The translations under genes were made by a program, and so were the position numbers. The notes beneath the pieces were generated by a model. That model worked only from the letters and a program-made list of their open reading frames with translations, did no database searches and was not told where the DNA came from. 64,000 nucleotides of DNA from Octopus vulgaris (Eukaryota). Shown piece by piece: positions 55,090 through 56,201 of the stretch. The stretch lies in contig OX597816.1 of the NCBI GenBank assembly GCA_951406725.2, positions 160,146,001 through 160,210,000 on the forward strand. The letters are read 5' to 3'. Position 1 is the stretch's first letter, and each line of letters begins with the position of its first letter.

Positions 55090-55471
55090 TAATATAACTA
55101 GATGGATGAAATTGCTTCCGAAATTGTAATTTTGTAAAAAAAAGAGTTGTAAAACTAAAACATTGTAAGAGAGGAAAAAAGTATGTAAGTATGAAAACAG
55201 ATCTTGAAGATAGATATGAATGAAACAGAAAGTGGAAATGAAAGCCTGAAGTAAAAAAATCAAGATATAGAGAAAGAAGAGCAGGATTAATTAGTTTGTA
55301 ATTAATGTTAATGGCAACTCCCATTTAGCTTCAGTTGATTTCATCTCTCTCTGTTCCTTTTTTTAATTTTTTTACCAGCCTTTCCATTCAACATTTTCCA
55401 TCCTCTACTCCCTCACATACTTGTACTCTTCCTGCCACTCCTATAGTGAATCATCTAGTGATTGTTTTAAT

Positions 55472-55690
55472 AATCCTTTCTAGTATAGACACAAGGCCTG
55501 AAATTTGTGGGGAGTGGCTAAGTCGATTACATCGACCCCAGTGTGTAACTGGTACTTATTTTATTGACCCCAAAAGGATGAAAGGCAAAGTCGACCTCGG
55601 TGGAATTTGAACTCAGAACGTAAAAGACAAGCACAATATCGATAAGCATTTCATCCAATGTGCTAATGATTCTGCCGGCTCACCACTTTC
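55472..55690 (-). mobile_element. SINE family B
   Basis: Complete copy just downstream (minus strand) of the tRNA-Lys copy. Confidence 0.88.
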
Positions 55691-55715
55691 AAAATAACAC
55701 AAAGAAAATGTCATT

Positions 55716-55788
55716 CGTCCAGCGTGGGGCTCGAACTCATGACCCCGAGATTAAGAGTCTTACGCTCTACTGACTGAGCTAGCAGAGT
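55716..55788 (-). tRNA. tRNA-Lys(CTT) copy, probably a pseudogene
   Basis: Reverse complement ACTCTGC TA GCTC AGTCAGTA GAGC G TAAGA CTCTTAA TCTCG GGGTC ATGAG TTCGAGC CCCAC GCTGGAC G: 73 nt, colinear with eukaryotic tRNA-Lys-CTT; acceptor, anticodon and T stems contain mismatches. Confidence 0.9.
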
Positions 55789-55798
55789 TGCTTGTGTG

Positions 55799-55916
55799 AA
55801 ATGCTTACAGCACCTAAGTTTCTCAAGCAGTCACCCATCTAAGTACTCACGAGGCTCAACATTGCTTAACTCCGATGATCGGACGGGAACTGGTATTTTC
55901 ATCATGATATGGCTGT
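55799..55916 (-). rRNA. 5S rRNA copy, probably a pseudogene (first ~4 nt altered)
   Basis: Reverse complement acagccatatcatgatgaaaataccagttcccgtccgatcatcggagttaagcaatgttgagcctcgtgagtacttagatgggtgactgcttgagaaacttaggtgctgtaagcatt is colinear with metazoan 5S, including box A (agttaagc) and box C (gatgggtgac); many CpG-type transitions. Confidence 0.9.
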
Positions 55917-56201
55917 TTTAATAATGTCAGGCAGGAAATGTACCATGCTTTCTCATTATCAATAATTTGTTATTACTAAACAACAAAATGTTAATAACTA
56001 ATTACTAAACAATTAGCGAAAGCAACTAATTGTTGTTTGTAGATGCTATACCAATGGAATTCTTCCATTCACAACTTATATTATGAATTTATTAAAATTC
56101 TTTTTTTATTATTATTAACCAAAATTTCATGATCAAATAAAATTTGCATTGTTAGTCATCCATATCTGTTATTAATATAATCATGCCAAAAATATACTCA
56201 T

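What the first reader, a model, noticed from the sequence alone, without database searches (positions are those of the whole stretch)
55700..55920. 5S rRNA joined head-to-tail to tRNA-Lys(CTT): possible dicistronic Pol III unit or composite retroposon
Seen: on the minus strand a near full-length 5S copy is followed after only ~10 nt (tcacacaagca) by a 73-nt tRNA-Lys(CTT) copy. Only T3 follows the 5S; the first T4 run lies ~8 nt past the tRNA. Both parts show similar decay, so they probably arrived as one unit. Known: 5S genes normally end in a run of four or more T; co-transcribed tRNA-5S genes exist in the yeast Yarrowia (in the opposite order), and 5S-headed (SINE3) and 5S/tRNA composite SINEs exist. 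Inference: this is a decayed dispersed copy of either a functional 5S-tRNA-Lys dicistron, where RNase P cleavage would release both RNAs, or a 5S-tRNA composite mobile element.
Basis: partly seen in the sequence, partly recalled or inferred. Interest (0 to 1): 0.75.

Follow-up and report, generated by a model that had tools for sequence, protein, structure and literature searches.

The report
One-off three-part RNA retrocopy
A decayed single-copy stretch holds a 5S ribosomal RNA copy, a lysine tRNA copy and a common short repeat inside one duplicated landing site, likely stitched together by a jumping-gene enzyme in one insertion rather than being a working two-gene unit or a new repeat family.

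Summary
On the minus strand it reads: 12-bp direct repeat, 5S (nt 5-119), 9-nt 5S-type trailer, 4-nt tRNA leader, tRNA-Lys(CTT), 25-nt tRNA trailer, full-length SINE, same 12-bp repeat. The junction occurs once in the 2.8-Gb assembly. 126 of 127 array 5S genes have their own T4 and no tRNA lies in the array. All three parts are about 15-16% decayed and 6 of 21 tRNA stem pairs are broken. Both junction types are common separately: 27 of 30 dispersed 5S copies examined are fused to SINE heads or repeat tails, as are many dispersed tRNA copies. A tRNA-Gln/5S/SINE trio in the opposite order lies elsewhere. Best reading: a tripartite chimeric retrocopy, likely from two reverse-transcriptase template jumps. 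This class is known from fungi and mouse. Unexplained: it lies 84 kb from the tRNA-Lys cluster holding its best trailer match. The scan noted a 5S-SINE fusion before in another genome (e1-9964047).

The parts
55914..55925 (-). Upstream copy of the 12-bp target-site duplication (ATTATTAAAACA); its last 3 nt overlap the start of the 5S copy
55802..55916 (-). 5S rRNA copy, nt 5-119, 19 of 115 positions changed; lacks the upstream sequence shared by array genes
55793..55801 (-). Likely 3' trailer of a 5S precursor (TTTCACACA). The same 9 nt follow a 5S copy on C14, where they are joined to a repeat tail; the related trailer TCACACATTT follows 50 other dispersed copies
55789..55792 (-). Likely 4-nt 5' leader of the pre-tRNA (AGCA); found before 3 of 13 intact cluster genes and before dispersed copies L038, L050 and L146
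55716..55788 (-). tRNA-Lys(CTT) copy, 11 of 73 positions changed, G18 lost, 6 of 21 stem pairs broken
55691..55715 (-). 3' trailer of the pre-tRNA with two T4 runs; aligns at 23 of 26 columns with the trailer of the intact gene at C3:160102811
55475..55689 (-). Full-length copy of an abundant SINE (45 full-length copies in 0.73 Mb of fetched, partly overlapping DNA), 33 of 210 positions off a pooled consensus; its ATT tail merges into the duplication
55463..55474 (-). Downstream copy of the 12-bp target-site duplication

Best explanation
This is a single-copy, decayed 5S + tRNA-Lys + SINE unit inside one 12-bp target-site duplication, likely written into the genome in one insertion by a LINE reverse transcriptase that jumped template twice. 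Inferred steps: (1) the enzyme primed on the SINE RNA's ATT tail at a matching target; (2) it copied the whole SINE; (3) it jumped to the 3' end of an unprocessed pre-tRNA-Lys and copied trailer, tRNA and 4-nt leader; (4) it jumped to the 3' end of a 5S precursor and stopped 4 nt short of its 5' end; (5) repair left the duplication. Shown: the anatomy, the duplication, single-copy status, equal decay, and that both junction types recur separately across the genome. Not shown: which LINE did it, and whether the RNAs were joined by template jumping or ligated beforehand. Jumping is favoured because intact Pol III 5' ends carry a triphosphate (established knowledge), whereas RtcB needs a 5'-OH. 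The copy is predicted to be non-functional now.
For: Duplication: a 12-nt exact repeat lies before the 5S and after the SINE, and none lies at the SINE head or the tRNA leader; 42 of 200,000 random upstream windows reach 12 nt. Control: among 19 5S fusions to the same SINE head, 5 have a repeat of 9 nt or more around 5S+SINE and 0 around the SINE alone, against 9 of 342 mismatched pairs. Likeness to intact tRNA genes stops at precursor boundaries (4-nt leader, 25-nt trailer); the DNA outside the unit scores at shuffle level against the flanks of all 13 cluster genes. Equal decay: 19/115, 11/73 and 33/210, chi-square p 0.96. 27 of 30 fetched loci (of 50 pattern matches) join a 5S trailer directly to a SINE head or repeat tail, with 14 different junction forms among the 19 that use one head. 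Trailers in young fusions match trailers of array genes. Dispersed tRNA-Lys and tRNA-Gln copies show trailer + SINE or tail. L147 and L197 join a tRNA to this same SINE head, and L197 has a long repeat around the whole. L095 holds tRNA-Gln + trailer + 5S + trailer + SINE head, in the opposite order and on another contig from its best-matching gene.
Against: The locus lies 84 kb from a 13-gene tRNA-Lys(CTT) cluster that contains its best trailer match; a random landing this close is unlikely (about 1e-4 per copy, my estimate). Six of the 12 duplicated bases could be SINE tail and three could be 5S. Exact duplications are found in only 5 of 45 full-length SINE copies, so the lack of one at the SINE head is weak evidence. 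One of the five control duplications (L159) sits in a neighbouring SINE tail. The trailer runs past a first T4. SINEs do sit right after the terminators of apparently native tRNA genes (L186, L194). The SINE reference is a pooled consensus of several subfamilies, so the decay comparison is rough. No empty orthologous site was found.
Confidence: 0.75

Rival explanations
1. Two-step chimera: a tRNA-Lys gene already had the SINE right behind it, a read-through transcript of that pair was retroposed, and only one jump (to 5S) happened here.
For: The trailer extends to a second T-run. tRNA genes with a SINE directly after the terminator exist (L186). This route also gives one outer duplication.
Against: No parent locus with this trailer-SINE junction among the 40 scored hits or in the 180 kb around the locus. 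Pol III would have to pass two T4 runs.
Confidence: 0.1
2. Sequential insertions around a native gene: an outlying member of the nearby tRNA-Lys cluster later received a SINE at its 3' side and a 5S retrocopy at its start site.
For: 84 kb from the cluster, with the best trailer match there. SINE-targeted insertion is reported in this genome by earlier, unchecked notes.
Against: No flank homology beyond leader and trailer, and the cluster's upstream motif is absent at the expected distance. No duplication at either inner boundary, but one around the whole. Equal decay of the three parts.
Confidence: 0.09
3. Decayed copy of a 5S-tRNA composite SINE family.
For: 5S has been added in front of tRNA-derived SINE heads in other animals (PMC4494074 and PMC4758252, passages). 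The unit ends in a SINE tail and has a duplication.
Against: One copy only. Two T4 runs separate the 5S-tRNA part from the SINE, so the 5S promoter would not be expected to transcribe the whole unit.
Confidence: 0.03
4. Decayed copy of a functional 5S-tRNA-Lys dicistronic gene processed by RNase P.
For: No T4 between 5S and tRNA, and a natural 4-nt leader. In a related organism one single-copy-depth contig also joins a 5S end to a tRNA-Lys start (weak, 25 nt on the short side).
Against: No intact counterpart in the assembly. Array genes terminate individually and have no tRNA. Both parts decay like the neighbouring SINE, and the acceptor and T stems are broken.
Confidence: 0.03

Closest known systems
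Tripartite chimeric retroelements: WEIRD-MgSINE-MGL of Magnaporthe grisea and B2-U6-L1 of mouse (PMC2104539; abstract and section 8 read)
   Same: Three RNA copies fused in the same sense inside one short direct repeat (14-16 bp there, 12 bp here), explained by double template switching; rare single copies.
   Different: There the 3' part is a LINE; here it is a full-length SINE, and the two added parts are 5S and tRNA with precursor-type leader and trailers.
U6/L1 and other small-RNA/retroposon chimeras of mammals, including U6-L2 and U6-Mon-1 SINE chimeras of platypus and pre-tRNA retropseudogenes (PMC4476161, passages)
   Same: A small RNA is added 5' of a LINE or SINE, with target duplication; capture of nuclear pre-tRNA has precedent.
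   Different: Mostly bipartite. 5S/L1 and tRNA/L1 chimeras are reported as mostly truncated and antisense (PMC11838501, passages); here they are sense and near full length. For U6/L1, RtcB ligation was shown as an alternative route (PMC6789731, abstract and introduction).
Dicistronic tRNA-5S genes of Yarrowia lipolytica (PMC2566860; abstract and section 13 read)
   Same: 5S and a tRNA a few bases apart with no terminator between them.
   Different: Yarrowia has 48 of 108 5S copies fused, tRNA first, 4-7 nt apart, sequence-intact and expressed. This is one decayed copy in the opposite order inside a retroposon duplication.
SINE3 and 5S-plus-tRNA-headed SINEs, such as the Deu-SINE subgroup (PMC4758252, PMC4494074, PMC5786205; passages)
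   Same: A 5S-derived sequence in front of a tRNA-derived sequence and a SINE body; template switching is the proposed origin of such heads.
   Different: Those are amplified families with a shared structure; this is single-copy with internal T4 runs.

Membership tests
Chimeric (tripartite) retrocopy | Copies of distinct RNAs fused directly, in the same sense | tested here: met
Chimeric (tripartite) retrocopy | One target-site duplication around the whole, none at inner joints | tested here: met
   12 bp, partly overlapping the SINE tail and the 5S start
Chimeric (tripartite) retrocopy | 3' part is a retroposon with its own tail | tested here: met
Chimeric (tripartite) retrocopy | Parts end at transcript boundaries, with no DNA flank of the source genes | tested here: met
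   the exact source genes were not identified
Chimeric (tripartite) retrocopy | Empty orthologous site with one copy of the target | tested here: inconclusive
   in the most distant relative laid (organism E) the flanks already run into the 5S and the SINE
Chimeric (tripartite) retrocopy | Template jump rather than prior RNA ligation | not testable with these tools
   needs biochemistry or raw RNA reads
Functional Pol III dicistron (Yarrowia type) | Multiple intact copies of the fused unit | tested here: not met
Functional Pol III dicistron (Yarrowia type) | Both parts sequence-intact and foldable | tested here: not met
Functional Pol III dicistron (Yarrowia type) | No terminator between the two parts | tested here: met
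Functional Pol III dicistron (Yarrowia type) | Junction-spanning precursor RNA | tested here: inconclusive
   assembled contigs of 3 runs only
SINE3 or 5S-tRNA composite SINE family | Many dispersed copies sharing one junction | tested here: not met
   1 exact match; no other scored hit covers both parts
SINE3 or 5S-tRNA composite SINE family | Whole unit transcribable from the head promoter (no internal T4) | tested here: not met
   two T4 runs in 55715-55691 and two more inside this SINE copy

The most novel reading that the evidence does not exclude
In this genome a LINE enzyme routinely chains unprocessed Pol III transcripts end to end, so most dispersed 5S copies are chimeras. Occasionally it builds a ready-made 5S-to-tRNA unit with a natural leader and no terminator in between. 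This locus would be a fossil of the step that creates 5S-plus-tRNA SINE heads and Pol III dicistrons, with the pre-tRNA captured while still nascent near its gene cluster 84 kb away.
Probability: 0.25. Interest if true: 0.6.

Novelty: new member of a known kind. Interest (0 to 1): 0.3.

Why it matters
The locus itself is a dead single copy. Its value is as a marker. Only a handful of tripartite retrocopies with target duplications are described in the papers I read, and this genome seems to make small-RNA/SINE chimeras in bulk from precursor RNAs, in sense and near full length. That makes it a good place to count template jumps, to read Pol III start and stop sites of 5S and tRNA gene variants (including ones no longer in the array), and to test the proposed route by which SINEs gain new 5S or tRNA heads. 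It also warns that a 5S next to a tRNA in this genome is not evidence of co-transcription.

Tried and rejected
RNA evidence: contigs of three RNA or probable-RNA runs (X15, X16, X20) gave no cover over 55705-55779 and no piece across the junction. Contigs cannot show absence, so this is not used as evidence. Empty-site search: four DNA runs were laid. Repeats swamped the joint table and no empty site was seen. In organism E, contigs run from each flank into the SINE (X13, 55140-55512) and into the 5S (55844-56044), at roughly 7-9% divergence, so the insertion predates that split. Joint in X10: one contig joins the 5S end to the tRNA start and skips part of the tRNA. A pattern for that internal deletion found nothing in G000 with up to 2 mismatches. 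It could be the orthologue with deletions, a second chimera or an artefact; unresolved. One search was badly designed (gap too short to reach a B box) and its zero result means nothing. One search (tRNA B box followed by 5S) gave 1 match, L169, with no Rfam hit at gathering score; it also missed L095, so exact patterns under-count decayed pairs. One search (5S followed by an A-box-like motif) gave 18 matches; by eye 16 are SINE heads, one another repeat and one not 5S. ARAGORN found a tRNA in 1 of 91 dispersed-5S loci scanned (some overlapping), but it also misses our own copy. General local capture: by eye about 2 of 10 clear tRNA-Lys chimeras and about 1 of 13 tRNA-Gln chimeras lie on the contig of their best-matching gene, which does not establish a general bias. 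5S+SINE as an amplified family: rejected because junctions vary and a T-run of 3-8 nt lies between the parts. L038 aligns into the spacer by 8 nt but has no 5S upstream; treated as chance. The window's 46 stop-to-stop frames were listed but not scanned, so gene context is unknown.

Full report
Observation. On the minus strand Rfam finds 5S at 55920-55802 (71.6 bits) and a sub-threshold tRNA at 55788-55716 (25.4 bits). ARAGORN finds no tRNA in the window. The tRNA copy matches this genome's intact tRNA-Lys(CTT) at 62 of 73 positions, and the 5S copy matches the commonest array 5S at 96 of 115, starting at nt 5. The spacer is 13 nt, and the first T4 starts 8 nt after the tRNA.

The unit is larger. 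Directly after the tRNA's 25-nt trailer comes a full-length copy of an abundant SINE (about 55689-55475). A 12-nt exact repeat lies just before the 5S (55914-55925) and just after the SINE (55463-55474). With one uniform rule, the SINE's 3' end finds no repeat at the SINE head or at the tRNA leader, and a 12-mer at the 5S start; 42 of 200,000 random windows do as well (the pool includes this locus itself). Six of the 12 bases could be SINE tail and three could be 5S, and only 5 of 45 full-length SINE copies keep an exact duplication of 9 nt or more, so this is good but not conclusive evidence.

Not a family, not a dicistron. An exact gapped pattern for the junction matches once in 2.8 Gb, at this locus. 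In DNA searches, none of the other 39 scored hits of 1183 candidates or of 72 candidates covers both parts. The 5S array at C4:35.2-35.3 Mb has 127 full-length copies in the 200 kb fetched (10 partial or more diverged hits of 137 were left out). 126 have a T4 within 15 nt, none has a CACAC trailer, and ARAGORN finds no tRNA there. In our tRNA copy 6 of 21 stem pairs are broken and the cloverleaf energy falls from -29.6 to -6.7 kcal/mol. The three parts are equally decayed (19/115, 11/73, 33/210; p 0.96), as expected for one neutral insertion, though the SINE reference is a pooled consensus.

What the spacer is. Its first 9 nt also follow a 5S copy on C14, where they lead into a repeat tail, and the related trailer TCACACATTT follows 50 other dispersed 5S copies. 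I infer it is the 3' trailer of an older 5S gene variant. The last 4 nt, AGCA, precede 3 of 13 intact cluster genes and several dispersed tRNA-Lys copies; I infer they are the pre-tRNA leader. The 25 nt after the tRNA align at 23 of 26 columns with the trailer of the gene at C3:160102811. DNA outside the unit scores at shuffle level against the flanks of all 13 cluster genes. The likeness therefore covers a precursor transcript and stops there.

Both joints are common in this genome. Of 30 fetched loci with the TCACACATTT trailer, 19 continue into one SINE head, 1 into the head seen here, 7 into a repeat tail and 3 into something else; the 19 show 14 junction forms. Nineteen 5S copies are fused to the same SINE head as here; 5 have a duplication of 9 nt or more around 5S+SINE, none around the SINE alone, against 9 of 342 mismatched pairs (one of the five is ambiguous). 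Trailers in young fusions match present array trailers. Dispersed tRNA-Lys and tRNA-Gln copies show a trailer, often a short leader, and a SINE or tail. L197 joins tRNA-Gln to this SINE head inside a long duplication. L095 on C2 holds tRNA-Gln, trailer, 5S, trailer and a SINE head; its tRNA and trailer best match a gene on C1. That is a second 5S/tRNA pair with another tRNA, another order and another SINE, as random chaining predicts. No outer duplication was established for it.

Mechanism. I commit to one target-primed insertion with two template jumps: SINE, then pre-tRNA-Lys, then 5S precursor (0.75). The order of copying, the enzyme and the jumps are inferred. Prior ligation, shown for U6/L1 (PMC6789731, abstract and introduction), needs a 5'-OH and a cyclic phosphate; intact Pol III 5' ends are triphosphates (established knowledge), so I rank it lower.

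Against. The locus is 84 kb from the 13-gene tRNA-Lys cluster that holds the best trailer match. One other chimera (L050) is 6.8 Mb from the same cluster and shares its trailer with one cluster gene; the rest are elsewhere. SINEs also sit right behind apparently native tRNA genes (L186, L194). These points keep the two-step (0.10) and sequential (0.09) readings alive. In organism E the flanks already run into the 5S and the SINE, so no empty site was available. One contig of run X10 joins a 5S end to a tRNA-Lys start with deletions; that deletion form is not in G000 and is unresolved.

Comparison with what is known. Tripartite chimeras with direct repeats are described in Magnaporthe and mouse (PMC2104539, abstract and section 8). 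U6 chimeras with L2 and a SINE in platypus, and pre-tRNA retropseudogenes, are described in PMC4476161 (passages). 5S/L1 and tRNA/L1 chimeras are reported as mostly truncated and antisense (PMC11838501, passages). Yarrowia dicistrons are multi-copy, intact and tRNA-first (PMC2566860, abstract and section 13). 5S added in front of tRNA-derived SINE heads is covered in PMC4494074, PMC4758252 and PMC5786205 (passages). A tRNA-like sequence in a fish 5S spacer is in PMC3464664 (passages). Searches listed no paper whose title or abstract start describes such chimeras in cephalopods. The library lacks most subscription papers; I did not read the original octopus and squid SINE papers, Repbase entries or any supplements, and I have not matched this SINE to a named family.

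Verdict. Interest 0.3. The part worth following is the genome-wide habit of fusing Pol III precursors to SINEs, and the unexplained closeness to the tRNA cluster.

Noticed in passing
L095:1521-1742 (G000 C2:193.47 Mb, minus strand): A second tRNA/5S/SINE trio in the opposite order: decayed tRNA-Gln(CTG), 22-nt trailer, 5S, trailer, head of another SINE. The best-matching tRNA gene is on C1.
   Followed up: partly
G000 genome-wide; L062-L091: 50 dispersed 5S copies share a trailer found in 0 of 127 array genes, suggesting a lost or unassembled 5S gene variant; 27 of the 30 examined are fused to SINE heads or repeat tails.
   Followed up: partly
L016, L019, L022, L092, L101, L102, L109, L158, L164, L166: A second 5S sequence type with several shared substitutions, often with its own trailer, occurs among dispersed copies and is not among the four commonest array variants; its source gene was not located.
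   Followed up: no
G000 C3:160091064-160117637 (L132-L134): Cluster of 13 intact tRNA-Lys(CTT) genes in mixed orientation with a shared A/T-rich motif about 30 nt upstream, 84 kb from the finding.
   Followed up: yes
G000 C4:35.20-35.34 Mb (L110-L123): 5S array with 137 hits, part a ~500-bp tandem repeat and part larger units with genes in both orientations; several different 3' trailers.
   Followed up: partly
L197 (G000 C4:161.71 Mb): tRNA-Gln + SINE chimera flanked by an unusually long direct repeat of roughly 110 bp, ending inside the head of another SINE.
   Followed up: no
L186 (G000 C1:153.010 Mb) and L194 (C1:142.31 Mb): Apparently native tRNA-Gln genes with a SINE starting right after or just beyond the terminator T-run.
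   Followed up: partly
L004, L050, L146, L149, L175, L177: A short repeat tail of about 55 nt that starts at nearly the same base is joined to 5S and tRNA trailers, often inside microsatellites; possibly the 3' end of the mobilising LINE.
   Followed up: no
run X10 laid on window 55743-55803: One single-copy-depth contig of organism E joins the 5S end directly to the tRNA-Lys start and skips part of the tRNA; orthologue with deletions, second chimera or artefact.
   Followed up: partly
G000 C3:160122406-160122495 (L135): Another decayed 5S fragment (nt 26-115, 80% identity) about 5 kb beyond the last gene of the tRNA-Lys cluster.
   Followed up: no
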